This document shows positions 5,392 to 30,318 of a stretch of DNA of 64,000 nucleotides, in pieces. Source of the DNA: Prorocentrum cordatum. Lineage: Eukaryota. The position numbers and the translations under genes are program-made. The stretch is taken from positions 3,100,001 to 3,164,000 of the forward strand of contig CAUYUJ010000001.1 of assembly GCA_963575745.1 (NCBI GenBank), given 5' to 3'. Below the pieces are notes generated by a model. That model did not search any database. It had not been told where the DNA came from and worked only from the letters and a program-made list of their open reading frames with translations. Every line of letters starts with the position of its first letter. Position 1 is the stretch's first letter.

Positions 5392-5560
5392 ACCACCCAC
5401 CAAACGACCCCTAACCCAACCCGAAGGCCGCAATTTTCCCTCCATTTCCAGTGGGGGGGGTCGGGAAACATTGACAAAAACACATGGAGCCCGTACCCCC
5501 CCAAACCCGAAATTCGGGTCAAATTCGGGTCTTCGGGTTTGGGTGGGGTGGTCTGGTAGG
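5392..5560. mobile_element. MITE-like element, family A copy 1 (copy 2 at 8440-8594)
   Basis: Imperfect terminal inverted repeats (acccaacccgaagg ... cttcgggtttgggtggggtggtctggta); internal ccatttccagtgg and gtacccccc..aacccgaaattcgggtc shared with 8440-8594. Confidence 0.75.
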
Positions 5561-5621
5561 TAGTACTACAGTGCTTCGCCACCAGGCCCTCTTGGCCCAT
5601 GTGTGGAGTAACATAGTTCAG

Positions 5622-5775
5622 GAGGGGAAACATCACAGACACAATCAATCGTCGATTCCCCAGAAAATATGGGAAAATATGGGCAGTGGGGGGGAAGACC
5701 GAAACTCAAAAAATATGGGAAAATACGGGGAATCCTTTTATCTGTGTGTATTTATTTGTGTGTCCCAGGGCCCCA
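5622..5775. repeat. About 150 bp dispersed repeat ending in gtgtgtcccagggcccc, 3 copies (5622-5775, 10635-10772, 31222-31406)
   Basis: Shared cacag(a/t)cac..aatc..gattccc...tatgggaaa...tgtgtgtcccagggcccc in all three copies, same orientation. Confidence 0.85.
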
Positions 5776-6382
5776 TCACTCCTTGCCGATCGTGTCTGGA
5801 TGCTGACGCATCTCCTCCTCCGTCTGCAATAAAGAGGTGCCTCTTGCCAGCAGAGCCGCTCTGACATCCACCGTGGCCAGCCTGGCCTGCTCGAGGCGGT
5901 CTGGCCCCGAGTCAACATCCGGAGTCACGCTAAATGCCGTGCAACTCAGCGACCTGCTCACGGCAGCGCTGTGGCCACTCATTCACCTGGGCTTCCACCT
6001 GCTTGGCGGCCAGATCGCTGCCGCTTGCCGCGCTGTCTTGGAAATACTGGCCTGGCAGCTCGACTCCCGAAGCCTCGGGGGCCGCAGACTCTCCGAGGCT
6101 CGTGGCTGCAGTCCGCCCGTCGGCGGCACGAGCTGGAGGGCCCATGTGGGACAGGGTCGGGAGTGCCTGGCGCTGACCCGCCCATTTGGAACTGAGCGCC
6201 GTCCAACTGGAAATATTCGGCCTCGTCCCCACCACCTTCTGCAGCCCGGGCAATACGCCACGCCGGCGTCCACCCGGCTAGCGTCAACTGTTTCACGGGG
6301 TCTCTCGTAGCACGATTTGCAACCGGTCGCCGCACGGCAGGCGAGCATCCTCGAGCCCAGGGCCATTGCCTTCCGACGAAGG

Positions 6383-6528
6383 CATCTATACACCACCACC
6401 GTGCCAAGGCAGGGCCATCCTGGGCCCCAGGATGGTGTATAGACCCTCTTGACCTCGGCCAGGAGGGCGTATACACCATCCTGGGGCCCAGGATGGCCCT
6501 GCCTTGGCACGGTGGCGGTGTATAGATG
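6383..6528. mobile_element. Hairpin (foldback) MITE-like element
   Basis: About 59-bp arms catctatacaccaccaccgtgccaaggcagggccatcctggg... and ...cccaggatggccctgccttggcacggtggcggtgtatagatg are near-perfect reverse complements. Confidence 0.85.
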
Positions 6529-8439
6529 ACTTCTGCGAATTGCCTGTTTTTGCCCCCCTCCTCCCCCTCCTCCCTCGGTTCCTGCCCTCCCGTTCCTCCC
6601 CCGGTTCCTGCCACCTTCTGCAGGTCGGGTTGAGGCCAGCGGCGGGTCAGCAGACGAGCGGCGGGCGCCACGGGTGACGCACTTGCCGGGCGGGCGGCGG
6701 TGGTGGGCACGCGGGCAGCCGTGAGAGCGAAGCGCCTGGCCTCTTCTTCCGCTCCCCGCCGCCGTGCTTCAACAAGCGCGTTCCACGACTCGCAGAGTGC
6801 CTGCCCGCAAACGTTCGACGCAAGTCCCGTTCTCCTCGATGTTATATCGCAGATCCCCCACGGCGGATCCAGGCCATTTGCGAGTAGTTACTTTTGCGAG
6901 TAGTGGAGCGCGCTTGTCTAGTTCTGGACTGGTGGATGCCAGTGGCAAGTCGGCGGCAGGGCGGCGGCTGTTCCCGTTGGCGCCCTGCCCTGGCGGTCGA
7001 CGGCGGCAGGCTCGTGGAAAGGTGTGGAAGTACGGCGCCCTGTCGTTCTGCGATCTGGTTTCGGTTTGCCCGCGGCCCCCAGGCTCGAGGCTTCCCCCCC
7101 GTGTCCCGCCCCCCCCCCCTCCCCTCTCCTCCTGTCCCCCCCCCTCCTCCTCCCTCGGGGCCACTTTGGTTTCCCTGCCTCGTCTGGCTTCCCCTCAGGG
7201 CCTGTGGGACAGTTGAGCTTCCCTCGGACAGGAATGACCCCCTCGTACGTGTGCCACATTTCAGTCGAACGCGGCGCGGGGTGCCAGCTCGATCCACACC
7301 GCGGCCTGCGAGCCTTGCCGAAGCCCTGGCCCGAGTCCTGTTTCCGCCCCCGTCGAGAGTGGGCCGGCTTCCCTGGGGTAGTTTCGGCGGATACGGGCGT
7401 TCTGGAAAGCGTCGCCTGCGGAAACCGTGACGCGCCTCTGGGGGCCATTACGTGCCTTCTCGTGCCCCCTGGACCTCTGCCTCTTCCCCCTCGCCGTCTG
7501 GCATCGGACAGCCGACCTTTCCTTCCCCTCTCCTCCTACCTGCCTCCCCTCCCTTCGAAGCCAACTTGTTCCTTTCTTTCCTTTCGACTCCCGTAGACAG
7601 GGCCCGGTGGATCGCGGACGGCGTCGACGCTCGCTAGCGTGGACACGCGAATTCCATGGTTCCGCCAGGCTTTATGGCAGTCTTGTGCTCACTGGGCGCT
7701 CCTGGGGTAGCCAAGGCCCCCACAGTTCCGACAGGCTCCGTGAGTGCGCGCGGTGCTAGTGGAGCCCCACCAACACGGGGTCATCCCAACTGCCCGCGTC
7801 GTGGTCCCGATTAGGTTCCACGTCGCTGATGCAGCCGTATAGGTTCTCACCACCTTTTCACTTTCTGCCGCTAAGGCTCTGGAGGGGCGTAGGACTCCTG
7901 TATGGACCCTCGGCCATCGAAGACGTCCATACAGGAGGGTCCATTCGTACTTCCACCCTATTTACACCGGAACCTCATACACCAGTCAACCGACCACGTA
8001 CACTGATGCTCCGCCGCCTCCTCCTCCTCTTCTCGTGTTTCGCCGCTCTTGTTGACAACGCCAGCGGCGGCGGGGGAAGGCGAAGGGAGGCGGGTGCCGC
8101 GCGGCCTCCCCGGCGGCGCACGGCCCAGGTGGCGCAGCCGTGTGCAGCGCTTCCGACCTCGCCGTGGCCATCGCTTCGGTCTTTTTGGGGGGGCCTCTCT
8201 CCCGCCTCCCGCCGGCTTGCTGGTCCACCTGCCCCTTCCCCCCTTCCCACCTCTTGCTTCTCTTCTCACCCGCCGCTTCCTCACCTGTTCCTCCTCCGCT
8301 CCTCTGCCCCCCCCCCGTTGTTCTCGTCTACTCCGCCCTGTTTGGCCCTGTTCCCTCATTCTGCTGTCGTCGGGTGCCTCTAGCGATGCCAGGGATAGGA
8401 CTGCTACGATAATGCGACCGAAAGTAATATTGCTCACCA

Positions 8440-8594
8440 CCACCAGACCACCCCAACCCAACCCGAAGGCCTCAATTGGCCCTCCATTTCCAGTGGTGGG
8501 GGGGTTCGTGGAACACGGACAAAGCCACATCTGGAATCCGTACCCCCCCAACCCGAAATTCGGGTCTTCGGGTTGGGTTGGGGTGGTCTGGTAG
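8440..8594. mobile_element. MITE-like element, family A copy 2
   Basis: accagaccaccccaacccaacccgaag is the reverse complement of cttcgggttgggttggggtggtctggt near 8566-8592. Confidence 0.8.
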
Positions 8595-9434
8595 GTAATT
8601 AATTGCTGATCCGATCATTTCGTATTGTTCAAGAGGCTTACGCCGTTCCGCCGACCCCAAGAGGGAAAGCATGTCCACGGGGGAGGCCTCTTGGGGGCCT
8701 CTTTTGGGAACCCCAGAAGGGGCCCCTTTTGGGCCTCTTAGGGCTTCTTTAGTCAGGAGGGGAATTAGCCTGACGAAGGACCCAACCATATGCAGGTGTG
8801 ACTACCGCAATTGTGATTCATTTTTTCGGTGGTGATCTCTATGAGGCAACGAACCGTGCTAGGGGTGTGCCCAAATGAGTGGCGTGGTACACAACGCGAA
8901 CGAAAACGATTGATCTGAGTACGTAGGGAGGCTGAGCGCGGGTGAATCTGAGCGCGAGTGCGTCTGACTGTGAATGAATCTGCGTGCGAGCGAGTCTACG
9001 TGCATGAATGCGAATATGGCAAAGCATGATGTATTTGTATATGAATGTCAATAGTTTGAGAATGACTGCCTCTGAGTACTCGTGACGCTGGGCGTGGCCG
9101 CCGCAAGGAGCTTCCCCGGGACTCCCCGACGGCATCGCCCGCGCGCCGCGACGCCAATGTCGGCGCGCCCCCCGCGAGGATCGCGCCCGCTTCCTCCCCT
9201 TCTTTTACTCCCTCTTTGCCCGCGCACTCAAAAGTCCAAGGCTGCGGGCGCAGCGCAGCGCGGAGTTCCCGCGACGCGCGCAGGTCGCCCCGGAGGGGTC
9301 CCATCGACGCGCGCGGGTCGTCCGCTGCGCGGAGCAAAGAGGGCTAGTTGGCTGGCTGATAGCGGGCAAGGCTCTTGCCGCTGGGCAGAGCGTCGACGGG
9401 CGAGCGAGGCGCGGAACTCCGACGGCCTCTGGCG

Positions 9435-10455
9435 GAGGTGTGCTGGGTGGGGGAGACGCATGCGGGCTGCGCCACGGGGACCTTCGGTGGAGCTCCTTAT
9501 GGGGCCACGACGCGCTGCGCTGGGTGGGGGAACCGCATGCGGACTACGCCACGGGGACATCGGTGGAGCTCCCTATGGGGCCACGAAGCGCTGTACTGGG
9601 TGAGGGAGACGCATGCGGACTGCGCCACGGGGACCTTCGGTGGGGCTCTATATGGGGCCACGAAACGCTGTACTGGGTGAGGGGGACGCATGCGGACTGC
9701 GCCACAGGGACCTTCGGTGGAGCCCCATATGGGGCCACGAAACGCTGTACTGGGTAAGGGAGACGCATGCGGACTGCGCCACGGGGACCTTCGGTGGCGC
9801 TTCCTACGGGGCCACGAAACGCTGTACTGGGTGAGGGAGACGCATGCGGACTGCGCCACGGAAACCTTCGGTGGAGCCCGTATGGGGCCACGAAGCGCTG
9901 TACTTGTTGGGGGGGGGGGGGGGGGGGCGCATGCGGACTGCGCCACGGGGACATCGGTGGAGCTCCCTATGTGGCCACGAAGCGCTGTATTGGGTGAGGG
10001 AGACGCATGCGGACTGCGCCACGGGGACCTTCGGTGTGGGTCCCTATGGGGCCACGAAGCGTTGTACTGGGTGGGGGAGACGCATGCGGACTGCGCCACG
10101 GGGACCTTCGGTGGAGTTCCCTTTGGGGCCACGAAGCGCTGTACAGGGTGAGGGAGACGCATGCGGACTGCGCCACGGGGACATCAGTGGAGCCCGTATG
10201 AGGCCACGAAGCGCTGTACTGGGTGGGGGAGACGCATGCGGACTGCGCCACGGGGACCTTCGGTGGAGCTCCCTATGGGGCCACGAAACGCTGTACTGGG
10301 TGAGGGAGACGCATGTGGACTGCGCCACGGGGACCTTGAGTGGGGCTCTATATGGGGCCACGGCGCGCTGTACTGGGTGGGGGAGACGCAGTCGGACTGC
10401 GCCACGGAGACCTTCGGTGGAACCCCTATGGGGCCACGGCGCGCTGTACTGGGGG
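9435..10455 (+). repeat. About 77-bp tandem satellite, about 13 units
   Basis: Unit gcgctgtactgggtgagggagacgcatgcggactgcgccacggggaccttcggtggagctccctatggggccacgaa repeated head to tail. Confidence 0.95.
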
Positions 10456-11388
10456 GTGATGATGCGGATGTTGATGATGATGACGGCGATGACGAAGATG
10501 GTGGTGGTGGTGATGATGATGGTGATGATGATGATGACGATGATGAGAGGAGGGGAGGAGGGAAAAGGAGGAAGAAAAGGAGGAGACGCGGGGACCGTCT
10601 CTTCAAAACGAGGACCCAACAACACAGGTTGGTTGGGGAAAAAGCACACAGTCACAATGAATCCTCGATTCCCCAGAAAAGTGTGGGGGGGAAAATGGCA
10701 ATCCAGAACATATGGGAAACTAGGGGGAATCTTTTTATTAGTGTCTATTTATCTGTGTGTCCCAGGGCCCCTTCATTATGGCGTGGCAGGAACGCATCGC
10801 TGGGGACCAGCGACAGCATCATTTGAAGAGAGGGTAGTCGGGTGGCGTGGAAGGACGGCGCAGAGAAAGGATTCGCGGCGAGATCTTGGGAGGCATTTGG
10901 ATGCTCGGGCCCATGTGGCCAGAGGCCACCTCGAAGCGTTTTCCGTGAACGCGGCAGCAATCTCGCTTCAAATCGCTCGGCAAGGAAAGGCGCAGACGTC
11001 GTAAAATGCGGAATGGAATGGAGGTGGACGCGATGCAGGGTGGTGGTGTGAAACTGATGCACCGCGTAGGAAAGGGTACAGTCAACCCGCATAGCAAGGA
11101 TGGGCGACCTTTCCAAGGGCCCCCTTGCATCCTTGCCTCCTCGGTCCATCCTTGGCCACTTTCGTTGGCCGCGTCTCGCCCGAACAGCATCGAAATGGGC
11201 GTCCAGGGCCCCTGCCCCTGCAATGGGAGACGGGTCTCTCCCAGTGTATACGCATGTGGTTTCCCTCCTTGAGCTGTCCGTAACGCCGCCTTGTGTCAGA
11301 CGCACTGTACGTGTTGCCGGGGATGCTGAGGGGTCTCTGTGGCGAAACCGCTCCGAAAGAACAAGAGGAGAAGGCTCTCGCATCCTTA

Positions 11389-11563
11389 CAGTCGGGGCGC
11401 TGAAGAAGGAACCCTTTTCGTTGGGGAGGGGCTCAGTGTTCCTTGATTGTTGTGCCATTTGCCGCAGGTTTCCCTGAGGTTTTCCGTGGGAAGTCGAAAT
11501 CAACTTTTTCGAAAAAGGGGCACCGTTCCCTATGTAAGGTTCCTTAGGTCAACGCCCCGACTG
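11389..11563. mobile_element. TA-flanked MITE, family B copy 1 (Tc1/mariner-like ends)
   Basis: TA|CAGTCGGGGCG ... CGCCCCGACTG|TA; second copy at 33045-33220. Confidence 0.9.
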
Positions 11564-14065
11564 TACCGCGCATCCTCACCATACGGGTTGGCTGTACGAG
11601 TCGGTGTGCTTCTGCGCTTCTGGCGGGTGCGCCCGCGGGCCTGCTGGGCAGCTGGTCCAGCGTGTACAGGAAGCGTGTGTCGGAGGTGGCTCGGCCTCCT
11701 GCCCTGACACGTCGATTCAGGATTTTGCCGTTCTCGGCTCGCGCGAGGGCGTCGTGGCCGTCGTTTTTGCGGGTCCAGGTTCGTCGGTTTCGGTCCCAGG
11801 CCGTCTTCACTGAGGGGAGGTTGATTAAAGGGAGGTTTGTCCACCGCCGAACGTGTGGTTGTGCGCGCAGAGATGGCAAACAAGGGCTAGGAAGGGGATA
11901 GGGGAGGAGGCGGCGAAGCGGTAAACGAGGAAGACGAGGAGCATGCGTAGGAGATGGCAACAGAGGGAGCGGGGGAGGACCAGATGGTGGGTGCACAGGT
12001 GGCAGGACACAACGACGAGGAGGAACACGCGCAGAGTGAATGCGAGGAGGGAGGCGACACGGCGCGACTGTCTGGTTTGAGCTGGTGTGCAACATCTTTT
12101 TGAGTCGCGGTGTGGGGTCGTAAGCCTAAAACAACACAAACGGCAAACGTAGTGGAACACGCGTGTGGCAATTGAGCAGATGTTTGGAGCGAGTCCCGCC
12201 ACCGCCCGCGGGTTTTGGGACAGAGGATTCGTGGATGCCCGTGTTTTTCGGGGGGCGTCTCTGGGGCGCCTCTCGGAGGCATGTTGGAGACTCTTCGGAC
12301 GCCTCTTGGCCCAGCATAGTGACATCCTACGCGGAGTCTGCTTCGCCTTGATTTCCCTCCCTGCGGGCCTCCCGAAGACCTGGCGGCGTTCCTGCGGGCG
12401 TTTTCTTCCCCCGCGCTGCAGGGCGCAGGGAGGAAACTGCGTCTCTGGCGGGCGAGCTGGGCCTCGCTCGCTTCTTGTACTGGCTATGACCAGCCAGCCC
12501 TGTGAAGCGCCAGAGCGACACGGCGCGGGCCGCGCTGCTTGGTCCAGCGTGCCACTTGAACGTGATAACCAGCCGCCGTCCTTCTTCATCCCACCTCTCT
12601 GTTGTCGTTCTCTTCCTCCTCCCACCATCTCACTGCTGCTGTCGCGTGAACTCTTCGGCCCCTCTTCCGTTCTCTTCCTGCCCTCCATTCCCACTCACGT
12701 TTCCTCGTCGGGCCTGTGGCCTCAGTCCTCGTGATTACGTTGCTGTCCTGTGAGGAGCGCAACGCGTGCGTCTCTCATATCGCTTGCACAACCAATGACA
12801 TATCTGGTATTGCCATCAACCATACTATTCTTGACCAGCTCTCCATGTCGCTCAACGCAGATGGGTTAGGTTCGTTGCACGGTACTTGTGTTTTTGTCGG
12901 CATTTTCTGATAGTGAGCACGTGCGTCGAGTGCGCCAGTGGAAGTGGCAACGCAAGAGAGGAGGGGGACGAGGATCGATGATCCTCAGTACACGTGTTAG
13001 CACAGTGTGTGCTTGCCCCGTTCAGCTTTGCCGACGCATAGCGCGCAGCCTGTATCGGCCTTCACTATGCCGCCCTGTGTAGGCTTCGGCAGACAGGCAC
13101 ACGTTGGGGTTCACGCGCGCTCTGAGGGTCACCGAGAGAGGGAGGCAGGACAAGGAGGAGGCAGAGGAAGGTGAACATGAGCAGGAGGAGGAGGAGGCAG
13201 GACAAGGAGGAGGCGGAGGAAGGTGAACATGAGCAGGAGGAGGAGACGATGGCTCGGAGGAGTGGGAGGAGCAGGGGCGAGGGGCAGACGACGAAGGGCC
13301 TCCGAAGGGGCTCGTGCGCACCGGGCCCGCGCCCTCCCCCGGGGGGGGGGCCTCCCCGCGGAATGCGGTGCGCGGGCAGGGCCTCGCTTTCGCCGCGGGT
13401 GCTGCCCGTCACGCTGGCGTGCCCGGCGGGGAGGCCAGCGCCTCCGCCCCCCGGCCTCGTTCGCGCGCGTGTTGCTGCTGCTGCCCCTCCTTGGGCTGGC
13501 GGGCCCCCAAACGGTGTGGTAACCACACCGTGTGATGAGCCGAGGGGGTTTCGGAATGGCCGCACGGTCTTGTGGTTCGGGTCGTTCTCGGGGGGTGCGT
13601 CGGGTGATTGGGGCCGTGCGATGACGGACTGTGCGGCGAGGTCTTTTGAGATTTCGAGGTCGCCGCACGGTCCGTCACCTCACGGTTCTGGGTCCCGATT
13701 TCCATCCTCTCCTTTCTCGTTCCTCGCTTTTCTGCCTCCCGCTCCTCCTGTAAGTGCCCAAGGGCCGTGACGTGGGACACGCTCGTCCGCAAGCTCGAGA
13801 GGGCCGTGACACAGCAAGCATTACGAAATCGAGCCACCGGTTGCGCCGTTCTTTCAAGAACTGCACAACCGATGAAGCATGATGATTGAAGAATGCCATG
13901 TGTGCAGCTTGGCAACTTAAGTTGTTCTCCTACTCCTTCTTGTCCTCATTGTTCCTCCTACTCTCTCTGCACGACCTCCTGCGGGATTCTGTGGCCACGG
14001 TTCATTCGTGAACGTGGGTGCAATAAGGGCGGCGGCATGGGTAATGCAGCGAGGCGCGCACTTGT

Positions 14066-14085
14066 CGCAGCCATTTTGGCCCAAG
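14066..14085 (+). other. Dinoflagellate spliced-leader relic
   Basis: CGCAGCCATTTTGGCCCAAG matches 18 of 20 nt of CGTAGCCATTTTGGCTCAAG; an ATG follows at 14163. Confidence 0.9.
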
Positions 14086-14162
14086 CTTGTTGGTTCGAAA
14101 CTATGTGTCAGTTTGTTCGTCGCACTGTTCTTACCCAACAGCCTCAAGCAAACTCTTCGGCC

Positions 14163-15430
14163 ATGTCTTCAGATGGCAGCTCGCCTGGCACGATTGCCTT
14201 GCAGTGTCTGGGGTCGCATGGCATGACGAACCAGGGTGCCGAGAGGTCAGTCAAGTGCAGCCTCTGTGAGTCCAGGATTGGTCCACCCAGGATGTTCATG
14301 AGCTGCGTTGGGGACACTTGTGGGTATACTCTTTCTATGGAGTGCGCGGGAGACCAAGCCGCAAAGCACGTTCAAAAGAAACGTCAAACTAAAGAGGGAG
14401 TATCGGGGATGCGCTGCGCTGAGCGCGCTGAGGGGCCAGGAAAGAAGCAATGTGATAGATCTTCGCGTTTGAATTCCATGGACGATGATTCGCCTGTGGG
14501 GCAGGAAGCTGCAGCAGGGCATGCACATCTGGAGGAGGAGGAGGAGTCGGAGGTGAACCTCGTCAAAATGATGAAAATCATGATGAAGGATATGAATGAG
14601 ACGAAGGGGGATATGAGGAAGGCAGCCAAGATAACATGGCGGCCATCGAATAAGCCAAGGACGAGGCAGCCTCAGCCAAGCAGTGTGCGGTGGAGGCTCA
14701 TCTGGGCCTGGCGGCCATGGAGGGGCAGTTCAGCAATATCCAAGAGAGCATCATCACGTAAGAAGACGTCCGCAATATCGTCCTCGAGACCATCTCGTCG
14801 TGCGGGTCACTTCGCAGGACCAGCTTTTCTACGCCGCCGAATTGTTTCACCTACCGCAGTTTTTGGCAACGCTCCCACCGGTAACAGTTTAGACAAAGCG
14901 AAAGTGTGTTTGACAGCGCACTGTCGCAAGCGTGCTCCCCCATCCCTTCCGGAGCAAAACATTTCCTTCAAGAGCGGCTTCAGAAGCATCGTGTTCATCA
15001 AGTTCATGTGCGGTTTCGACAAGGTGAACTTCCTGAGCTCCACCCGGGTGGCTGTTTTGGTTCAGCAAGTCGTTCCAGGAAAGGTGGTGTGGGCTAAGCC
15101 GGACCTCCCCATCGGACCCCGCATGGAGCAGACCGCCTTATTCGGCATCCGTCGGGCGCCCACGCAGCGGGGGTAGAACAAGACTTGCATGAAGATCAGC
15201 ACGGACTGTTCCCCACTAGAGACGTCGGTAGCCGGCGTCACAGTAGTGAAGGCGGTGGTGGACGACTACGCCCTCCAGTTGCATTGGCTTGACAAAGGGT
15301 GGCGCGACTGAGAAGCCCTACAGCAAACCCAGGAGCTTTCCGACATCATCGAGGTCATCCAGGGAAAACTAAACAGGGCGAAGGCCATCAGCCAGACCAG
15401 GGGTTCGGGGAAGGGTCATGGATCCAAATG
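14163..15430 (+). pseudogene. Frameshifted LINE ORF1-like sequence (Cys-rich N-terminus, coiled coil, RRM-like part)
   Basis: CLGSH..CSLC..C.GDTCGYTLS.EC cysteine cluster, VNLVKMMKIMMKDMNETK coiled coil, TAVFGN...IVFIKF...VWAKPDLP; sits directly behind an SL relic. Confidence 0.5.
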
Positions 15431-15764
15431 ATTATCTGACGAGGTTCTAGTGTGGCAGTCATTTGGCCTCATGCCTCATATCACGTTTCACCAACTACTG
15501 AAACCACCGCTCCATTTACAAAAGGAGAGCCAGGGCCAACCCGATACCAAGACACCCCCTCCCACCCTCGTCTGTCTTCCCCGACCTGCCCGGTAGCCTT
15601 TGGTCATTAGTTTCGCATGATGGTGGCATGGACCAGGGCGCCTCTCTGAACGTCCCCAGATGGGGAGATTTTTGGGTTCCTGCAGCGTGCAGCTGTTGAC
15701 TCCGACTCCTACCCCAACAACTTCAGCTCAGAGGGGAACCGCGCTCCGGCTGCGAGGACTTCGT

Positions 15765-15965
15765 CTTGTGCGTCTTCTGCGTCTTTAACTTCTTCTACGT
15801 CCTCTACGTCCTCTACCTCTTCTCCGTCTTCTGCGTCTTCCACGTCTTCTACGTTTTCTACGGTCTCTACGTCTTCTACGGCTTCTACGTCTTCTACGTC
15901 TCCTACGTCTTCTACGTCTTCTACGTCTTCTACGTCTTCTACGTCTTCTACGGCTTCTACTTCCT
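15765..15965. repeat. 9-bp minisatellite (cttctacgt)n
   Basis: Direct reading. Confidence 0.95.
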
Positions 15966-16017
15966 CTGTCTCTTTCTCCTCATCCTCCTCCTCCTCCTCC
16001 CCCTCCTCCTCTACTCC

Positions 16018-16801
16018 TCGGGCTGAACAGGACCCCAAGCGAAACGTCTGTGAATTTTGCTATGTTCCGGGTTGCTTATTTGTTTGCTCGATGTCGTTCT
16101 CGCGCGCGGTTTCTCTGGCGTTGCTGGACGCTCTTCGCGATGCCGCAGCACATGGTCGGGCCCCGACTCGCCTGGGCCCCGCCGCGGAGTCCGTGGGCCC
16201 TGGCCCCAGAATCAAGGGAGATCTGCGCCCTTGAGTCGAGGGCTCTGGACGCGGGGTCCGCGGGGCCCCAAGTACACAGGCCACCCGCGCGCGCTGGGCT
16301 TGCCCCCCGAGATGCCACCGGACGAGGCCACCGAAAGCTGCCCCGAAAGATGGCAGTTTCACATCGGCCGAATTATTAGCGAAAGTTGGGTGAATTATCT
16401 TCGGTCTTGTTTTTAACAGTGCGGAGCACCATCCGAGGCGTCGACGGGCAAGATTCGGAGCCCTTACGCGGCGCGATTCGGAGCCCCATTCGGGGCGTCG
16501 ATGGGCAAGATTCGGAGCAGGAGCGCGGCCGCCGCAGGCAAGATTCGGAGGTGGGATTCGGCTACATGAGGTGCGATCAGCGCCGCCCTCAGCAGCCTCT
16601 CAGAAGCATCGGAGGAGCCCCTTGGGAGCTTCTCCGGAGCCTCTCAGGATCATCTCAGACTCTTCGCGCTCGCGCCCGCGCAAAGGCGGGCTCAATGCCC
16701 CCCCGGCGCTGCGTCGTGAAATGGAGCGTGCGATTTGCATCTTTCAGATTTGAAGAGGAAGCCGCATTCACATGCCATCTTGGGGGGGCAGTTCAGCCCG
16801 A
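16018..16801 (+). mobile_element. 784-bp non-autonomous TIR element, copy E1
   Basis: Ends TCGGGCTGAAC ... GTTCAGCCCGA; left flank CTACTCC, right flank GAAATAC; near-identical to 17460-18242. Confidence 0.9.
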
Positions 16802-17063
16802 GAAATACCGCTAGGGGATCGACGCTCGCCGCGCGGTGTCTGAAATACCGCTGAGGGGATCGACGCTCGCCGCGCGGTGTCTGAAATACCGCTAGGGATC
16901 GACGCTCGCCGCGCGGTGTCTGAAATACCGCTGAGGGGATCGACGCTCGCCGCGACGGCCGCGCGGTGTCTGAAATACCGCTGAGGGGATCGACGCTCGC
17001 CGCGCGGTGTCTGAAATACCGCTAGGGGATCGACGCTCGCCGCGCGGTGTCTGAAATACCGCT
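16802..17063 (+). repeat. About 41-bp tandem repeat, 6 units plus a partial one; one more unit at about 17420-17459
   Basis: Unit gaaataccgct(g)aggggatcgacgctcgccgcgcggtgtct. Confidence 0.95.
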
Positions 17064-17459
17064 ACGCCGTTAAGCTACGCGTCACGTTTCATGATGAGAG
17101 CTTGAAGGTGGCATGGGTTTCGTGTCTTCCTTCCGCGTGAGCAAGCGGGCAGAGGCTGACCACTGCCCTGGCCGCGCCGAGCTGGCCCCCCCTTCCCCCC
17201 TAGAATCTTAGCGGACTGAGTCAAGAGCGGTCGGATCAAATATCCGGGATTTCTAAAAGTGGGATTTCATCCCTTACTATAATAGTATAGATTTAATACG
17301 GGACATTTTGAAATCCCGATGTGAATTCAGTCGGTTCCAGAAATCCCACCGGGGCGGGATGTGTCTTTGCTTATGCGAGATGATCGACTTTTATTTTATG
17401 ACGAAACTTATGTAACGCCGATGAGGGGATCGACGCTCGCCGCGCGGTGTTTGAAATAC

Positions 17460-18242
17460 TCGGGCTGAACAGGGCCCCAAGCGAAACGTCTGTGAATTTT
17501 GCTATGTTCCGGGTTGCTTATTTGTTTGCTCGATGTCGTTCTCGCGCGCGGTTTCTTGGCGTTGCTGGGCGCTCTTCGCGATGCCGCAGCGCGTGGTCGG
17601 GCCCCGACTCGCCTGGGCCCCGCCGCGGAGTCCGTGGGCCCTGGCCCCAGAATCAAGGGAGATCTGCGCCCTTGAGTCGAGGGCTCTGGACGCGGGGTCC
17701 GCGGGGCCCCAAGTGCACAGGCCACCCGCGCGCGCTGGGCTTGCCCCCCGAGATGCCACCGGACGAGGCCACCGAAAGCTGCCCCGAAAGATGGCAGTTT
17801 CACATCGGCCGAATTATTAGCGAAAGTTGGGTGAATTATCTTCGGTCTTGTTTTTAACAGTGCGGAGCACCATCCGAGGCGTCGACGGGCAAGATTCGGA
17901 GCCCTTACGCGGCGCGATTCGGAGCCCCATTCGGGGCGTCGATGGGCAAGATTCGGAGCAGGAACGCGGCCGCCGCAGGCAAGATTCGGAGGTGGGATTC
18001 GGCTACATGAGGTGCGATCAGCGCCGCCCTCAGCAGCCTCTCAGAAGCATCGGAGGAGCCCCTTGGGAGCTTCTCCGGAGCCTCTCAGGATCATCTCAGA
18101 CTCTTCGCGCTCGCGCCCGCGCAAAGGCGGGCTCAATGCCCCCCCGGCGCTGCGTCGTGAAATGGAGCGTGCGATTTGCATCTTTCAGATTTGAAGAGGA
18201 AGCCGCATTCACATGCCATCTTGGGGGGGCAGTTCAGCCCGA
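17460..18242 (+). mobile_element. 783-bp non-autonomous TIR element, copy E2
   Basis: Same TIRs as E1; left flank GAAATAC, right flank CTACTCC. Confidence 0.9.
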
Positions 18243-18299
18243 CTACTCCAGCTCATTCGTCGCCGCCCACCGCTGGCGGGGACTGCCGGTCAGGTAACG

Positions 18300-20700
18300 A
18301 CCACCTTGGTCTTGCCAGGTACGAATGCAACGTCCGTGCTCTCATCAACTTCGACGAGCGCGTCGAACGATGCATGAGGGAACTTGGGGGCAGCATTGGG
18401 ACTTCATTGCGTTTTCGGGGACATGGCGCGAAGGGCGAGATGAAACATGGGGCGCTGCAGATGGGCATGCGTTTTTCGGGAGCGGGGGCGCGCATGGATC
18501 TTGTGGTGTGGGTTTTCTTGTGCATCGGCGCTGGGATCGCAAACGGTTCACTCCTGTTTCAAGGATGTTCGCCGCGCTGGGCGTCGACGTAGTTTCCGTG
18601 GGCGTGATCCGAGAATCCGCTGTGTACATGCCCCGCTCCAAGATAAGTGACGAGGGGGTCAGCGAAGTGCTCGGGCAGATGGATCAGCATCTCTGGGAAG
18701 CCCGAAACAGGAATTACATATTCGGCGGCGACTGGGGATCTCAACGCGGAGATTGGGTCCAAGGATGGGTCCGATGACCCTGATCTTGTCGGCGCCAACC
18801 CCATGCCAGTTAGAGTCGGGAGTGGGCGAGGGGGCGCGTTCGTCCACTGGCGCATGGTCAACCGCATGGCTATTGCAATTTCTTTTGGAGCGTCTTTGTC
18901 CGAAGATGCATGGGCGTGCCGAAATGCCAAGCGGCGGGCCCAGCTGGGTGGCATCTTGGTGGGTCCAAGCCTGCGCTGCCACGTAGATTCCTGTTGCGTG
19001 GGCGCAACGGTAGGCGTTGGCTCAGGCCGCAGACGAGTCAGAGTGCGACCGTCAAACCCAGCGCGCCGAGGAGGAAGAGGAGGAAACGCAGACGTGGTTG
19101 CTGGAAGCCCAGGTCGTCTTGTTGCCGCGTTGCAAGCCGCCTTTGACGACGTCGATCGGGGGCGGTGCGACGCAGCTGAAAAGGGCCGCCCGCCTCGACC
19201 CGTGCGCGCGGGGCGCCGTGCAAAAAGATGTTCGGGATATCCAGGTGCAAAAGCGCAGCCTCATCGGGCATTCCGCGCAGACGCCCAGATGCAGTCGTTG
19301 ATATATCGAAGAAGGAACCTGCGCTTGTCTGACTTGGCGCCCCGCGAGATGGAGAAGAAGCGAATGGTTGGTGTTGGGCAAGGCCATGCAGAGGCTTATC
19401 CGAGAATGGCAAACCCAGCCTGGAGAGCCCGGGGGAGGTGCCGCCTTCGTGGGGCCGAGGATGGCTGCGCAGTAGGCGAGTGGGCCCATGCTTGCGATGA
19501 ACTACGCATGGGGTGATGTCACGCACTCGCCTTAGGAGGCCTCTGCGTCGGTAGTGGGCCCCGTGGCATCCTATGGCGTGCGACTGAGAGACGTGTAGCC
19601 TGGGCAAATCGCAACCCTGGAACAGACCTGAATCAGATGCAGGTCGGCAGCCAGCAAGCCCAGGCCAGGCCTCGAGGTGAGCTACCACGGGCCCGTTGAG
19701 GGCCGATGTGCAGGGCGCGCATGGGTCTGAGCTCGTGCTCGGCAATGCTTGTGCGTAGGCATCCTGTTGGCCTCCGCGCAGCCGACGCAAAGGCTGGTCG
19801 GAATCCCATGCAAAAACAGCTGTAGTGAGCGTGCGGCGGACCTGCAGTGCGGATGGGGGGAGCACTTTTCTGTGCGCCCACTGTGAATGTATTTAGGTCT
19901 TTCGGTAAATTGGCCGCCTCCCAACGCGCCCGTGGCAAGTTTTAGCGCGTGCGATGCGCGGGGCCCCTGCGGCGCGTCAGGTTGGCCGCGCGCGGGCGCA
20001 TGGGGTCCCCATGATGGGGAACTAGATGTAGACGTGCGTATCGTAGGGCAGGATGTAAACAGGCAGCCCTCGCGCAGGCCCGTGGCGGGCTTGCGCGTGG
20101 GCGATGCGCAAGCCTACTGTGCACCTATAGGTGGGCGACATAGGCCGATCGGAATCAAGGTGGGCCGCGGGTCGGTCGTCGTCGGGCTCGTTGCTTGCAG
20201 GGGCCGGGTCTGGCGTGGCCCCTCGGAGAAGGTCAGCGTCGGTGGCCCGCGGCGCTGTTGCGTTTCTATATCCCGCAGCCAGCCGGCGCAGTCGCCAGAC
20301 CACTTCGCGGCGTGAAGAGCGCTTTTGCCAGCAGGCTCGCGGCGGCCGTGGAGGCGTCGGCCGGGTCGGGGTTCATCGACTTCCGCCCCGGCCGGGTCTC
20401 CGCGGGCACCTCGCCCTTCCATCGGAGCACTTCGACAATCCGCCGGGGCGGCCCAGCCGCGAGATTCATGGTCGCAGTGCCCTTAGCCTGTCTGGCGAGA
20501 TCAGCTTTGGCGGCGCGTGGCGCCCGTGGGCGCCGCGTTGTCGACGCGCGAAGTTCTCGCGGGTCTGCGCCGCGTTGCGCCGTGCTCCTCCGCGGGCAAA
20601 GCGGCTCGCGCGGCCGCCCGCGCGTCGGCCCGGCCCCGCCGGCCCGCTTAGACTGCGCGCAAACCGCCCCCCGACCCCCGTCGCGGGAAATGCGCGCCGA
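18300..20700 (+). mobile_element. Heavily decayed LINE ORF2 (APE endonuclease followed by RT remnants)
   Basis: ECNVRAL, WDFIAFSGTWR (degenerate xxxETW), GSCGVGFLVHRRW, AVYMP and GDLNAEIG are APE motifs; the downstream RT region is barely readable. Confidence 0.75.
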
Positions 20701-20919
20701 ACCGACCGTCAAATTACTGATCGACCATCAGCCAGCTGCCATTAGATAGTCGGCCAGGTTCCTGAAGAACAAATCCCCCTAGCTGAGATATCCCAGGGGG
20801 GCGGGGGGAGACTGGTGTCGACGCCCCGCCGCTTTCGCCACTCGAAGACGCGGGCGCTCGGGACGTCCTGGACGAGCAGGGCAGGCAGCGTCTCCTGTCC
20901 TGGCCCCGTCGACGCCATC

Positions 20920-21960
20920 AAGTGGCGACCGAAGGCGCCAGTGGCTCTGACCACGTGCGCCCCGCGCCACTCAGCACGGCGTTTCGTGGGCCTATAGGGA
21001 CAGTGGTTGTGGCCACGTGCGTCCCGCGCCACCCATTATGGCGCTTCCGTGGCCCGGTAGGGTGCTCCACCGATGGCCCCACTGGTTGTGACCAGAAGCG
21101 TCCTTCGCCACTCAGTACGGCTTTTCGTGGCCCCGTAGGGAGCTCCACCGATGGCCCCAGTGGTTGTGACCACGTGCGTCCCGCGCCACCCAATACGGCG
21201 TTTCGTGACTTCAAGAGGATCTCCACCGAAGGCGCCAGTGGCTGTTGCCAGATGCGTCCCGCGACACCCAGTACGGTTTTTCGTGGCCCCGTAGTGAGTT
21301 TCAGCGAAGGCCCCACTGGCTGTGACCACACTCGCCCTTCGCCGCTCAATGCGGCGCTTCGTGGCCCCATGGGGAGCTTCACCGAAGGTGCCAGTGGTTG
21401 TGACACGCGTTCCGCGCCACCCAGTGCGGCGTTTCGTGGCCCCATAGGGAAATCCAGCGAAGGCCCCTGTGGTTGTGACCGCATGCGTCCAGCGCCACCC
21501 AGTACGGCGTTTCGTCCAGAGGGAGTTCCACCGAAGGCGCCAGTGGCTATGACCACATGCTTTCCGCACCACCCAATACGGCGCTTCGTGGCCCCTTGGG
21601 GGATTCCACCGAACGCCCGATTGGTTGTGACCACATGCGTCCCGCGCCACCCGGTACGGCGTTTCGTGGCCCCATAGGGAGCTCCACCGGTTGTGACCAC
21701 ATGGTTGTGACCAGAAGCGCCCCGCGCCACCCAATGCAGCGGTTCGTGGCCCCATGGGGAACTTCACCGAAGGCACCAGTGGTTGTGACCACATGCGCCC
21801 CCCCCGCCCATTTCGGCACCCCCCACGCGTTTGGTGGCCCCAGAGAACTCCACCGACGGCTCCAGTGGCGACGTTCGCATGAGCCCCCGTCACGCGCTTC
21901 GTGACGTCGTGGCCCCATAGACAGGGGGCTCCACCAAGGGCCCCACTGGCGACGTTCGCA
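20920..21960 (-). repeat. More diverged relative of the 77-bp satellite in inverted orientation
   Basis: Units contain tttcgtggccccatagggagctccaccgaagg, the reverse complement of the 9.4-10.4 kb unit core; the remainder of the unit differs (cagtggttgtgacc). Confidence 0.9.
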
Positions 21961-22204: not shown

Positions 22205-22535
22205 ACGATGATGATGACGATGATGATGATGCTGCTGATGATGATGATGATGGTGATGGTGATGGTGATGATGATGATGACGATCATTATGATGATGCTC
22301 ATGATGATGCTCATGATGCTGATGCCGACGCTGATGGTGGTGGTGATGTTGTTGATGATCATGATGATTCTGCTGATGATGATGATGATGACGATGGTGA
22401 TGGAGATGGTGATGATGATGACGATGCTGATGGCGATGATGAGTGTGATGGTGATGGTGATGGGGGTGATGATGCTGATGCTGCCGATGATGCTGATGAT
22501 GCTGGTGATGCTGCTGGTGATGATGCTGATGATGC

Positions 22536-22576
<41 letters not shown>

Positions 22577-22613
22577 TGATGATTATTATGATGATTATGA
22601 TGATGATTATAGC

Positions 22614-22670
<57 letters not shown>

Positions 22671-22750
22671 GGTGGTGGTCGTGGCGGTGGTGTTGGTGGT
22701 GATGATGATGATGATGATGATGCTGCTGATGCTGCCGATGATGCCGATGC

Positions 22751-22782
<32 letters not shown>

Positions 22783-22799
22783 ATGATGATGTTGATGCC

Positions 22800-22872
<73 letters not shown>

Positions 22873-22968
22873 GATGATGATGCTGCTCATGATGCTGATG
22901 CTGATGATGATGATGACGATGGTGACGGTGATGATGATGACGATGACTGATGATGATGGATGATGATG

Positions 22969-23066
<98 letters not shown>

Positions 23067-23402
23067 GGTGGTGGTCGTGGCGGTGGTGTTGGTGGTGATG
23101 ATGATGATGATGATGCTGATGACGATGATGATAATGATGAGGATGATGATGAGGATGCTGATGACGAAGCTGCTGCTGCTGATGATGATGATGAGGATGG
23201 CGATGCTGATGATGCCGATGATTATGGTGATGAGGATGATGCTGACGACGATGCTGATGATGATGACGAGGATGCTAATGATAATGCTGACGATGATGAT
23301 GACGACGACGATGGTGATGATGACGATGATGATGATGGTGGTGATGATGCTGCCGATGATGATGATGATGATGACGATGATGATTATGATGATGTTGATG
23401 CC

Positions 23403-23454
<52 letters not shown>

Positions 23455-23552
23455 GTGGTGGTTGTGGTGATGATGATGATGCTGCTGATGATGCTGATGA
23501 TGATGACGATGGTGACGGTGATGATGATGATGACGATACTGATGATGATGGC

Positions 23553-23613
<61 letters not shown>

Positions 23614-23649
23614 CTGATGATGTTGATGCCGATGATGATAATGATGATA

Positions 23650-23714
<65 letters not shown>

Positions 23715-23752
23715 GGTGGTGGTGGTGGTGGTCGTGGCGGTGGTGTTGGTGG

Positions 23753-23787
<35 letters not shown>

Positions 23788-23825
23788 CTGCTGATGGTGA
23801 TGGTGCTGGTGGTGGCGGTGGTGCT
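22205..23825. repeat. Long imperfect (GAT)n/(GGT)n array
   Basis: Direct reading; marker ggtcgtggcggtggtgttggtggtgat recurs near 22680, 23075 and 23730. Confidence 0.97.
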
Positions 23826-25960: not shown

Positions 25961-26281
25961 GATGATGATCATGGTGAGCATGATCATGATGTTGGTGATG
26001 GTGGTTATGACGATGATGCCGATTCTGTTGATGGTGATGATGGTGATGCTGCTGATGATGATGATGCTGATGCGCATGCTGATGCTGCTGCTGATGATGG
26101 TGACAATGATGTAGCTGATGATGCTGATGATGATCATCATCATGATGTTGTCGATGCTGATTCTGCTGATGATGACGACAACGATCTCGACGACGATGAC
26201 GACACCGACGACGACGATGCTGCTGCTGCTGATGATGATGATGATGAGGGTGACGATGATGATGACGATGACGATGCTGCT

Positions 26282-26326
<45 letters not shown>

Positions 26327-26573
26327 GATGCTGCTGATGATGATACTGAAAATGAAAATGATGTTGATGATAAGGATGGTGCTGATGGTTATGATGATGC
26401 TGATGATGGTGATGATGATGCTGTTGATGAGGGTGGTGCTGATGACGATGGCGGTGATAACGGTATGTCTGATGCGGACTTTGTTGGCGGTGGTGGTGGT
26501 GGCGGTGGTGATGCGGGCGATGCTGCCGATGCTGATGGGCATGTGATGATGGTTGTGTTGATGATTTTGTTTC

Positions 26574-26605
<32 letters not shown>

Positions 26606-26838
26606 CTGATACTAATACTAATGATGGTGATGATGATGGTGATGATGATGATGATCATGATGATGATGATGCTGATGCTCATGCTGATGCTGATTTCGAT
26701 GATGATGATGATGATGATGCTGATTCTTCTGATGGCGATGATGGTGATGGTGATGGTGATGGTGATGGTGGTGGTGGTGGTGGTTGCTGCTGATGATGAC
26801 GCTGCTGATGACGACGATGCTGATGATGCTGATGCTGC

Positions 26839-26870
<32 letters not shown>

Positions 26871-27132
26871 GTGGTGGTGGTGATGAGAACGATGCTGATG
26901 ATGGCGATGCTGATGCTGATGGTAATGCTGATGACGACGATGACAACGATGTTACTGCTGCGGATGATGGTGCTGATGACGATGATGATGATGCTTATGA
27001 TGATGACGTAGATGATGAATGCGTCGGTGATATATTGGGGTTGATGCGGGTGATAGCAGCGATGGTGATTATGCCGATGATGATGCTATCACTGATGATT
27101 ATAATGATGACGATGATGATAATGATTACGCC

Positions 27133-27190
<58 letters not shown>

Positions 27191-27363
27191 CTGACGCTGC
27201 TGATGATGGTGCTGCTGACGCCTCTGCTGATGATGGGAACGTTGATTACCAGTCGGATGGTGATGACGATGATACGGATGATGGCGCTGCTTATGACGAC
27301 GACGGCGATGACGATGCCGATGGTAACGACGACGACGATGACGCTGACGATGACAATCATGTC

Positions 27364-27409
<46 letters not shown>

Positions 27410-27783
27410 CTGATGATGCTGATGGCGGTGCTAATGATGATGCTGATGATGTTCATGATGATGATGATGATGATGCTGATGACGATGGCGATGCCGCTGC
27501 CGATGACGATGACGCTGATGATGGTGCTGATGCTGCTGATGATGCTGATGATGATGCTGATGGCGGTGCCGATGATGATGATGCTGATGATGATGACGAT
27601 GAAGATGACGATGAGGGTGCTGATGATTATGCTGATGCTAATGATCACGACGATGATGCTGATGACGATGATGATGAATCATATGATTTTTTTTATATTA
27701 TGCTGATTCTGCGGCTGATGATGATTTTGACGGTGATGATGCTGCTGCTGCTGTCGATGATGATGATAAAGACATGATGATGC

Positions 27784-27824
<41 letters not shown>

Positions 27825-28084
27825 GGGATGACAATGACGATGCCGATGATGCTGACGATGCCGATGCCGATGACGATGACGCTGATGATGATGATGCTGA
27901 TGGTGATGATGCTGCTGATGCTGATGCTGACTGATGACGATGATGGTGGTGGTCATGGTGATGATGATGATGATGATGCTGATGATGATGATGATTATTC
28001 TAATGGTGTTCATGATGAGGAGGAGGAGGAGGAGGTTGATGATGATGATGATGGTGATGCAGAGGCTTAGGATGATGAGGATGC

Positions 28085-28176
<92 letters not shown>
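25961..28176. repeat. Long imperfect (GAT)n array
   Basis: Direct reading. Confidence 0.97.
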
Positions 28177-28177
<1 letters not shown>

Positions 28178-29745: not shown

Positions 29746-29803
<58 letters not shown>

Positions 29804-29888
29804 GGAGGAGGATGAGGATGATGCTGATGATGATGATGATGATGATGATGCTGATGATGATGCTGATGATGATGATGATGATGATGCT

Positions 29889-29942
<54 letters not shown>

Positions 29943-30002
29943 GGTGGTGGTGATGGTGGTGGTGGTGGTGGTGATGATAATGATGATGATGATGTTGATG
30001 AC

Positions 30003-30048
<46 letters not shown>

Positions 30049-30318
30049 CTGATACTGATGCTGATGCTGATGATGATGATGCGGATGAAAACGATGCTGC
30101 TGCTGATGATGATCATGATGATGATGATGCTGATGATGATGATGATGATGATGCTGATGGTGCTGATGCTGATGCTGATGCTGATGATGATGATTATGAT
30201 GATGATGGTGATGGTGATGGTGATGGTGATGGTGATGATGATGATGATGATGATGATGCTGATGATGATGATGACGATGATGATGACGATGATGCTGATG
30301 CTGATGATGATGACGAAC

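What the first reader, a model, noticed from the sequence alone, without database searches (positions are those of the whole stretch)
16011..18249. Swapped 7-bp target duplications: a cointegrate-like structure that may record capture of a small DNA circle
Seen: CTACTCC | E1 (16018-16801) | GAAATAC ... 658 bp ... GAAATAC | E2 (17460-18242) | CTACTCC. E1 and E2 are near-identical direct copies with TCGGGCTGAAC/GTTCAGCCCGA TIRs. Neither copy has its own matching TSD pair; the outer flanks match each other and the inner flanks match each other. The 41-bp repeat array at the start of the middle segment continues in register at its end, so joining the two GAAATAC gives a seamless circle. Established: replicative transposition or recombination between an element on a circle and one on a chromosome leaves exactly this pattern. 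Inference: a roughly 0.65 kb circular molecule was integrated through this TIR family, or an E-middle-E tandem moved as a composite transposon. Either is unusual for a eukaryotic non-autonomous element, and a 7-bp TSD with T...A ends does not fit the common superfamilies.
Basis: partly seen in the sequence, partly recalled or inferred. Interest (0 to 1): 0.8.

Follow-up and report, generated by a model that had tools for sequence, protein, structure and literature searches.

The report
Two transposon copies carrying trapped repeat DNA
Two near-identical copies of a small inverted-repeat transposon enclose a piece of a high-copy repeat and sit together inside one 7-base target duplication, most likely because the pair moved as one block; it is a tidy but not extraordinary transposon rearrangement.

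Summary
E1 (16018-16801) and E2 (17460-18242) are 99.1% identical direct copies with perfect 11-bp inverted ends. The outer flanks are both CTACTCC and the inner flanks both GAAATAC. Joining the two ends of the 658-bp middle restores the register of its 41-bp array (32 of 34 letters).

New evidence:
- E is a mobile element in its own right. Three database proteins that read out of E's right end diverge exactly at ...CCCGA|. With the two window copies this gives five different right flanks.
- In public runs, contigs of E and especially of the middle have far greater depth (about 400-500 and 3,000-12,500) than a unique flank contig (3.4). Contigs from two other runs bridge E's right end into the same array.

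So the middle is part of a high-copy repeat family that E commonly sits in, not a private 0.65-kb circle.

Explanations, with confidence:
- Best (0.4): E-middle-E moved as a composite ("macro") transposon through its outer ends.
- Main rival (0.3): homologous recombination of a resident solo E with a circle or tandem donor.
- A replicative cointegrate, an LTR-like element and an assembly artefact are each unlikely.

A 7-bp duplication is known for Galileo (P superfamily). No genome or raw reads were available to decide between the models.

The parts
16011..16017 (+). Left outer 7-bp duplication, CTACTCC
   Evidence: Identical to 18243-18249; the neighbouring bases differ, so it is exactly 7 bp.
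16018..16801 (+). E1, a 784-bp non-coding TIR element (ends 16018-16028 and 16791-16801)
   Evidence: It matches the E contigs of the runs everywhere except 16115 and 16216, plus 16495 where the runs themselves vary. No Pfam family in its ORFs and no Rfam family.
16802..16808 (+). Inner 7-mer GAAATAC, the first letters of the 41-bp array (old duplication, right copy)
16802..17064 (+). Array of six units of 39-50 bp (consensus GAAATACCGCTGAGGGGATCGACGCTCGCCGCGCGGTGTCT)
   Evidence: (period 41, 6.3 copies, 89% matches). It has the greatest contig depth of the whole stretch in all four runs.
17065..17417 (+). Unique part of the middle, 50% G+C. It holds an A+T-rich core between inverted GGGATTTC / GAAATCCC motifs (16-nt arms 17245-17260 and 17303-17318).
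   Evidence: pair I14; DNA fold z = -2.19. It differs from the run contigs at 17208, 17241, 17297, 17330, 17331, 17361 and 17377.
17418..17459 (+). One further array unit ending in GAAATAC (17453-17459), the left copy of the old duplication
   Evidence: 95% to the units; 32 of 34, in register with the array start.
17460..18242 (+). E2, 783 bp, a direct copy of E1
   Evidence: It carries five A-to-G changes and a 1-bp deletion in its first 260 bp relative to E1.
18243..18249 (+). Right outer 7-bp duplication, CTACTCC

Best explanation
E is a roughly 784-bp non-autonomous cut-and-paste (TIR) transposon that makes 7-bp target duplications. In this lineage it commonly sits inside a high-copy repeat, at the GAAATAC of that repeat's 41-bp array. 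At some donor place two E copies lay in direct order one repeat period apart (E-middle-E, one and a half units of a reiterated [E+middle], either in a tandem arrangement or on a multimeric circle). A transposase supplied in trans then used the left end of the first copy and the right end of the second and moved the whole 2,225-bp block into CTACTCC. This duplicated those 7 bases on the outside and carried the old GAAATAC duplication along on the inside. Shown: the anatomy, the 7-bp length of both duplications, the restored array register, E's mobility (different flanks), and the high contig depth of both parts. Inferred: the donor arrangement and the use of the outer ends.
For: Anatomy. Both duplications are exactly 7 bp, and the inner pair restores the array register at 32 of 34. 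That marks an ordinary E insertion into the array, later carried inside the block. E is mobile on its own: 3 of 136 candidate proteins matched the E ORF, and they diverge from E1, E2 and each other directly after ...GAVQP, giving five different right flanks. The family context is the array: the 855-nt record of X12 and the 846-nt record of X7 bridge 16801|16802 by 41 and 32 letters, and one X2 record joins an array-unit end (...GAAATAC) to E's start (tables 8 and 5c). Contig depths in X1: unique flank record 3.4, E records 380-487, middle bins 3,097-12,533. E1 and E2 both carry G at 16216/17657, where every covering contig of all four runs has A (table 3). This fits two neighbouring donor copies. 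Precedent: a maize Ac/Ds macrotransposon bounded by two elements (PMC3260210, passage), and alternative transposition that uses the ends of two nearby elements and leaves family-length TSDs (PMC4270019, passages).
Against: No second E-middle-E block with its own duplication was seen, and no donor arrangement was seen directly. No genome is held, and contigs cannot show long arrangements. In X12 the only listed contig that leaves the unique part at 17427 runs on into other sequence (ATCCACGATGG...) and not into a unit plus E (records and loose ends). So the closed [E+middle] period is not the general arrangement of the family. E1 and E2 differ at 7 sites, and E2 carries most of the changes. The tool warns that summed contig depth is not a copy number and that contigs drop rare variants. 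Homologous recombination gives the same end product.
Confidence: 0.4

Rival explanations
1. Homologous recombination. A solo E first inserted at CTACTCC in the ordinary way. Later either a 1,442-bp circle [E+middle] crossed over with it, or a break in it was repaired by copying from a tandem [E+middle] donor with the two ends in different registers. Either route adds one middle and one more E without any new transposition.
For: It gives exactly the same topology. Solo-type E copies with non-array right flanks exist, so the required resident copy is plausible. All 7 differences between E1 and E2 lie in the first 513 bp and the last 271 bp are identical, which is compatible with a crossover to the right of 16523. 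Two of the differences look like family polymorphisms rather than new mutations. In X1, contigs placed on E2 around 17715-17722 sum to depth 164.8, against 2.8 at 17569 and 17594. The A at 16523 is the letter of the X12 contig. Exchanged 7-bp TSDs are the accepted mark of ectopic recombination between Galileo copies (PMC2775673). Loose ends suggest that the closing junction GATGAGGG|GATCGACG could arise by recombination between short similar motifs within one repeat copy (inference).
Against: It needs more steps: a solo insertion, then a circle or tandem donor, then recombination. Both parents would have to carry the G at 16216, which no covering contig in the four runs shows. No solo-E allele and no circle junction was observed, but contigs could not have shown them.
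Confidence: 0.3
2. Replicative (Shapiro-type) cointegrate. A circle carrying one E transposed replicatively into CTACTCC, duplicating E and linearising the circle between the two copies.
For: The topology is the textbook cointegrate (from general knowledge of bacterial transposition, not tested here). The middle closes seamlessly.
Against: The two copies would be identical at birth, yet they differ at 7 sites, at least two of which look like pre-existing family variants. Replicative cointegration is not known for eukaryotic cut-and-paste elements (general knowledge). The middle belongs to a high-depth chromosomal-type repeat family with other flanking contexts.
Confidence: 0.05
3. One element with long terminal direct repeats (LTR- or TRIM-like), where E is the terminal repeat and the middle is the internal region, inserted once.
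For: Direct terminal repeats with short inverted ends and one outer duplication. E's commonest neighbours being the start and end of the middle is what an LTR's inner neighbours would look like. Solo copies exist.
Against: The ends are TC...GA, not TG...CA, and the duplication is 7 bp rather than 4-6. There is no TGG-type primer site after E1 and no purine tract before E2 (read). The inner 7-mers are identical and restore an array register, which this model does not explain. The middle has more contig depth than E, the opposite of a 1:2 ratio. No reverse transcriptase or integrase domain was found in the window.
Confidence: 0.07
4. Assembly artefact: reads from [E+middle] repeats were wrongly threaded through a solo E.
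For: The repeats have high depth and are hard to assemble. No independent read spans the block.
Against: The outer duplication is perfect, E1 and E2 differ at 7 sites, and the middle has private letters. In X1, contigs fitting E2's own variants lie at depth 2.8, near the 3.4 of the unique flank, although X1 may be the source sample.
Confidence: 0.05

Closest known systems
Maize Ac/Ds macrotransposons and composite insertions from alternative transposition
   Same: The ends of two separate nearby elements of one family are used together. The intervening DNA travels with them, and the block is flanked by a duplication of the family's usual length (PMC3260210 passage; PMC4270019 passages).
   Different: There the family is hAT with 8-bp duplications, and the events were seen genetically from a known donor. 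Here the family is unclassified with 7-bp duplications, the donor is inferred, and the passenger is 658 bp of a high-copy repeat.
Bacterial composite transposons and IS-mediated cointegrates
   Same: Two direct copies bracket a passenger, with a new outer duplication and the old duplication on the inner flanks (general knowledge).
   Different: The window looks eukaryotic: no prokaryotic gene pattern, microsatellites, and no Pfam family in 150 ORFs. There is no transposase or resolvase. The copies are not identical.
Galileo (P superfamily) in Drosophila
   Same: 7-bp target duplications. Non-coding copies are common. Exchanged duplications are used to infer recombination between copies (PMC2775673).
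   Different: Galileo has long, internally repetitive inverted ends, and there the exchange produced inversions between inverted copies. Here the ends are 11 bp, the copies are direct and the result is an insertion block. No transposase was available to test membership.
Tandem dimers of transposons as seeds of satellite DNA
   Same: Two copies of one element in tandem with a short spacer, and interplay between a transposon and a tandem repeat (PMC5932611, title and start of abstract in the listing only).
   Different: There the dimers arise by double insertion at one site. Here the spacer is a full period of another repeat and the pair has its own outer duplication.

Membership tests
Non-autonomous TIR (class II, cut-and-paste) transposon | Terminal inverted repeats | tested here: met
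   11 of 11 perfect, 16 of 19 when extended. The 14-mer occurs only at the four E ends, and 0 of 100 shuffles reach that count.
Non-autonomous TIR (class II, cut-and-paste) transposon | Target duplication of fixed length | tested here: met
   Two events, both exactly 7 bp. GAAATAC restores the array register at 32 of 34; CTACTCC surrounds the block. No solo copy with both flanks could be read.
Non-autonomous TIR (class II, cut-and-paste) transposon | Copies at different sites with a sharp common boundary | tested here: met
   Five different right flanks start after ...CCCGA. For the left end, 0 hits among 22 candidates, so only the right boundary is confirmed outside the window.
Non-autonomous TIR (class II, cut-and-paste) transposon | An autonomous partner with the same ends that encodes a transposase | not testable with these tools
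   None in the window. No genome is held.
P superfamily (Galileo-like) | 7-bp target duplication | tested here: met
   The Galileo value comes from PMC2775673.
P superfamily (Galileo-like) | Target consensus GTAGTAC | tested here: inconclusive
   Both window 7-mers match 5 of 7 (joint chance about 3e-4, post hoc). Back-translating the three other right flanks gives G, A and A at position 2, not T.
P superfamily (Galileo-like) | THAP-type P transposase | not testable with these tools
   No coding partner is available.
LTR retrotransposon / TRIM | TG...CA repeat ends, 4-6 bp duplication, primer-binding site and polypurine tract | tested here: not met
   Ends are TC...GA and the duplication is 7 bp. 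The inner borders GAAATACCGC... and ...GTGTTTGAAATAC show neither motif (by inspection).
Composite transposon / macrotransposon | Two same-family elements bracket a passenger, with one family-length duplication outside them | tested here: met
Composite transposon / macrotransposon | The same block at other sites, or a known donor | not testable with these tools
   No genome. The public DNA collections gave 0 matches.
Integrated extrachromosomal circle | The ends of the passenger join seamlessly | tested here: met
   32 of 34, in register.
Integrated extrachromosomal circle | The free circle, or a circle junction in reads | not testable with these tools
   All four runs laid were contigs. Table 5 lists no joint, and the single record in table 5c (array end to E start) also fits a linear arrangement.

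The most novel reading that the evidence does not exclude
[E+middle] is a 1.44-kb extrachromosomal, multi-copy circular element. Its 41-bp array and A+T-rich inverted-repeat core would act as an origin-like region. It enters chromosomes by transposase-mediated cointegration, or from multimers, through E's ends. This would make it a eukaryotic counterpart of an IS-bearing plasmid. The window would then record one such capture, and the high contig depth of E and the middle in several runs would partly reflect free circles.
Probability: 0.07. Interest if true: 0.8.

Novelty: new member of a known kind. Interest (0 to 1): 0.35.

Why it matters
If the composite reading holds, this is a clean natural example from a non-model eukaryote of two small non-autonomous TIR elements moving intervening DNA, here a piece of a high-copy repeat. 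That is one way in which satellite-like DNA gets seeded at new chromosomal sites. It also defines an unclassified TIR family with 7-bp duplications and a frequent home inside a 41-bp array. It does not by itself open a long-standing question. Only the low-probability circle-replicon reading would be surprising.

Tried and rejected
- **Whole genome.** None is held, so E flanks could not be tabulated genome-wide.
- **Exact-pattern scans, all 0 matches.** Array unit in viral, metagenome and genome contigs. An E 28-mer in metagenome, genome and viral contigs. A 28-mer from the middle in viral contigs.
- **blastn (distant) of E+middle** against plasmids and phages: no match.
- **Rfam.** 0 at gathering score for the whole window and 0 at E <= 1 for 15900-18350.
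- **Pfam.**
  - 12 long ORFs, then the 150 longest stop-to-stop ORFs out of 311 of at least 110 aa: nothing at or above any curated cut-off.
  - On reading ORF 18298-18774 I guessed it was endonuclease-like. No family matched at E <= 1, so I dropped the idea. One search was an error caused by a wrong frame.
- **Protein Atlas** for ORF 13893-15173: best score 0.82, below the level the tool treats as meaningful.
- **Earlier findings of this scan:** nothing.
- **Protein search with the frame that enters E from the left:** 0 of 22 candidates.
- **Sequencing runs.**
  - No RNA holder was listed.
  - No listed record spans the whole stretch.
  - Table 5 lists no joint: none that skips E-middle (solo-E or empty allele) and no back-joint of a circle.
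  - The left flank 15000-15719 had no cover in any of the four runs, and the unique flanks had none in X2, X12 and X7.
  - Because all four runs were contigs, none of these blanks counts as evidence.
  - Shares of 0.12-0.23 in metagenome runs that I did not lay are not used as evidence of habitat.
- **Loose-end consensus strings** were searched in the window: 0 matches with up to 3 mismatches.
- **Virus-like origin in the middle.** From memory of the NANTATTAC nonamer, the minus strand has TACTATTAT (8 of 9). It lies in a 42-nt loop and lacks the final C, and the fold z-score is only -2.19. I rejected it as a match.
- **Empty-site reconstruction by index.** Open frames cross the join, but the sequence is low-complexity, so this says nothing either way.
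- **Galileo-like target consensus.** See the membership test; it is not supported by the three extra flanks.

Full report
**Observation.**
- The region reads exactly as described: CTACTCC | E1 16018-16801 | GAAATAC ... GAAATAC | E2 17460-18242 | CTACTCC.
- E1 (784 bp) and E2 (783 bp) are 99.1% identical. They differ by six substitutions and one single-base indel, all within the first 513 bp.
- Each copy has perfect 11-bp inverted ends, 16 of 19 when extended. The end 14-mer occurs nowhere else in the 64 kb, and 0 of 100 shuffles reach 4 matches.
- Both 7-mer pairs are exactly 7 bp, because the neighbouring bases differ.
- The 658-bp middle consists of six units of a 41-bp repeat, about 360 bp of unique sequence at 50% G+C, and one more unit.
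- Removing one GAAATAC and closing the middle puts that last unit in register with the first (32 of 34). The closed form would be 651 bp.
- A chance 7-mer match is expected at about 8.5e-5 from composition. It is seen at 0.17% of positions at this spacing in this repeat-rich window.
- The window holds no other copy of either part.

**What E is.**
- E has no Pfam or Rfam match and no long credible ORF.
- An accidental open frame runs out through its right end, and I used it as a probe of the protein collection.
  - 3 of 136 candidates matched, with 93, 91 and 83% identity.
  - They follow E to ...GAVQP and then diverge from E1, from E2 and from each other.
  - With the two window copies this gives five different right flanks starting directly after ...CCCGA.
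- So E's right boundary is confirmed outside the window, E is a dispersed mobile element, and neither GAAATAC nor CTACTCC is a fixed part of it.
- In P0003 the tail runs into a second E right end in the opposite orientation about 104 nt away (30 of 35 residues).
- The corresponding search for the left end found nothing (0 of 22 candidates).
- The inner GAAATAC pair is best read as the duplication of an ordinary E insertion into the array. The length of 7 bp is then seen twice independently.

**What the middle is.**
- No genome is held, so I laid Logan contigs of four public runs on 15000-19300.
- In X1 a 458-nt contig matches the unique right flank with no differences at depth 3.4. E contigs have depths of 380-487, and the bins of the middle sum to 3,097-12,533.
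- In X2 the figures are about 900-1,300 for E and 10,000-21,800 for the middle.
- The tool warns that summed contig depth is not a copy number. Even so, the contrast shows that both parts belong to abundant repeats and that sequence like the middle is more abundant than E.
- Two contigs from other runs (X12, 855 nt; X7, 846 nt) carry the whole of E and bridge its right end into the same array by 41 and 32 letters.
- All contigs that start E begin their match at 16021. This is what one G fewer in the GGG run would produce.
  - One X2 record joins an array-unit end to E's start with the letters TCGGCTGAACA in between (table 5c).
- Loose ends show array units and the end of the unique part continuing into other sequence. 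For example, in X12 the contig covering 17250-17427 runs on for 104 letters that are not a unit plus E.
- The middle is therefore a member, and here a circularly permuted derivative, of a larger and heterogeneous high-copy family. E sitting in its array at GAAATAC is a common state of that family, not something private to one small circle.

**Variants.**
- Relative to the E contigs of the runs, E1 differs only at 16115 and 16216, plus 16495 where the runs are mixed. E2 carries the other changes.
- Both window copies have G at 16216/17657, where every covering contig of all four runs has A. They share a variant that is rare at best.
- Contigs placed on E2 around 17715-17722 sum to depth 164.8 in X1, against 2.8 at 17569 and 17594. 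The A at 16523 is the letter of the X12 contig.
- By inference, at least two of the seven differences are pre-existing family variants rather than mutations since a duplication.
- This argues against a replicative cointegrate from a single E. It is compatible with two neighbouring donor copies or with a recombinant.
- The window's middle differs from the run contigs at seven positions of its unique part, which is more than E does.

**Mechanism.** Three routes give this topology.
- **(a) Composite transposition (best, 0.4).** The outer ends of two E copies one period apart are used together, as in maize Ac/Ds macrotransposons and alternative transposition (passages read). The 2,225-bp block lands in CTACTCC. 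This needs the fewest steps and fits the shared rare variant.
- **(b) Homologous recombination (0.3).** A solo E at CTACTCC recombines with a circle or a tandem donor. Exchanged 7-bp duplications are the accepted sign of ectopic recombination for Galileo. Solo-type copies exist, and the differences lie to one side of a possible crossover point.
- **(c) Replicative cointegrate (0.05).**
- An LTR-like single element (0.07) fails the tests on ends, duplication length and inner borders. It also predicts less middle than E.
- An assembly artefact (0.05) is unlikely given the perfect outer duplication and the private variants. No independent read spans the block.

**Comparison and novelty.**
- From memory, other superfamilies also include 7 bp in their range. 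This was not checked here.
- Both window 7-mers match Galileo's consensus at 5 of 7 (about 3e-4 jointly, post hoc). The three back-translated extra flanks do not follow it, so superfamily membership stays open.
- The case is a new member of known kinds: a TIR element family and a composite or recombinant block.
- The one exciting reading is a self-maintaining 1.44-kb circle that cointegrates. The evidence does not exclude it, but nothing I could test supports it.

**Limits.**
- All outside DNA evidence comes from contigs of four runs, and X1 may be the source sample.
- Seven exact-pattern scans of public collections and two blastn searches found nothing.
- The host lineage was not identified. 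No Pfam family reached its cut-off in the 150 longest ORFs.

Noticed in passing
window 9439-10453 and 21001-21920: Two arrays of a 77/78-bp repeat lie in opposite orientation about 10.5 kb apart (arms 72-83% complementary) and bracket the finding. The pair could be the internally repetitive inverted ends of a large foldback-like element, or just two satellite blocks.
   Followed up: partly
window 22207-23802, 25961-28177, 29746-30427: Very long (GAT)n and (ATG)n tracts (531, 737 and 227 copies). They lower G+C to about 47% and raise GC skew to about 0.5.
   Followed up: no
whole window: None of the 150 longest stop-to-stop ORFs (of 311 with at least 110 aa) reaches a Pfam cut-off, and there is no Rfam family at gathering score. 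The window is 60.5% G+C and full of tandem repeats (56 TRF rows). The host lineage was not identified.
   Followed up: partly
window 15762-15960: A 9-bp repeat, CGTCTTCTA, in 22 copies directly left of the insertion site. On the minus strand it reads as an acidic VED/VEE repeat. The block sits at the end of this low-complexity tract.
   Followed up: no
window 17474-17715 (E2): Five of the six substitutions that separate E2 from E1 are A-to-G on the + strand, and all five lie in the first 260 bp of E2. This could be a conversion tract from another subfamily or a directional mutation process.
   Followed up: partly
protein P0003 (another assembly): Its reading frame leaves one E right end, crosses about 104 nt of an AGRQ-type repeat and enters a second E right end in inverted orientation. 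Two E copies lie tail to tail inside another tandem repeat.
   Followed up: partly
window 17245-17350: The 8-mer GGGATTTC occurs twice forward and twice as GAAATCCC around an A+T-rich core (ttactataatagtatagatttaatac) in the unique part of the middle. The DNA fold z-score is -2.19. Its function is unknown.
   Followed up: partly
window 16422-16553 and 17863-17994: Inside E, the motif GGCAAGATTCGGAG recurs four times at 23-34 bp spacing within a 57-bp duplication (families D5-D7). These are possible protein-binding repeats.
   Followed up: no
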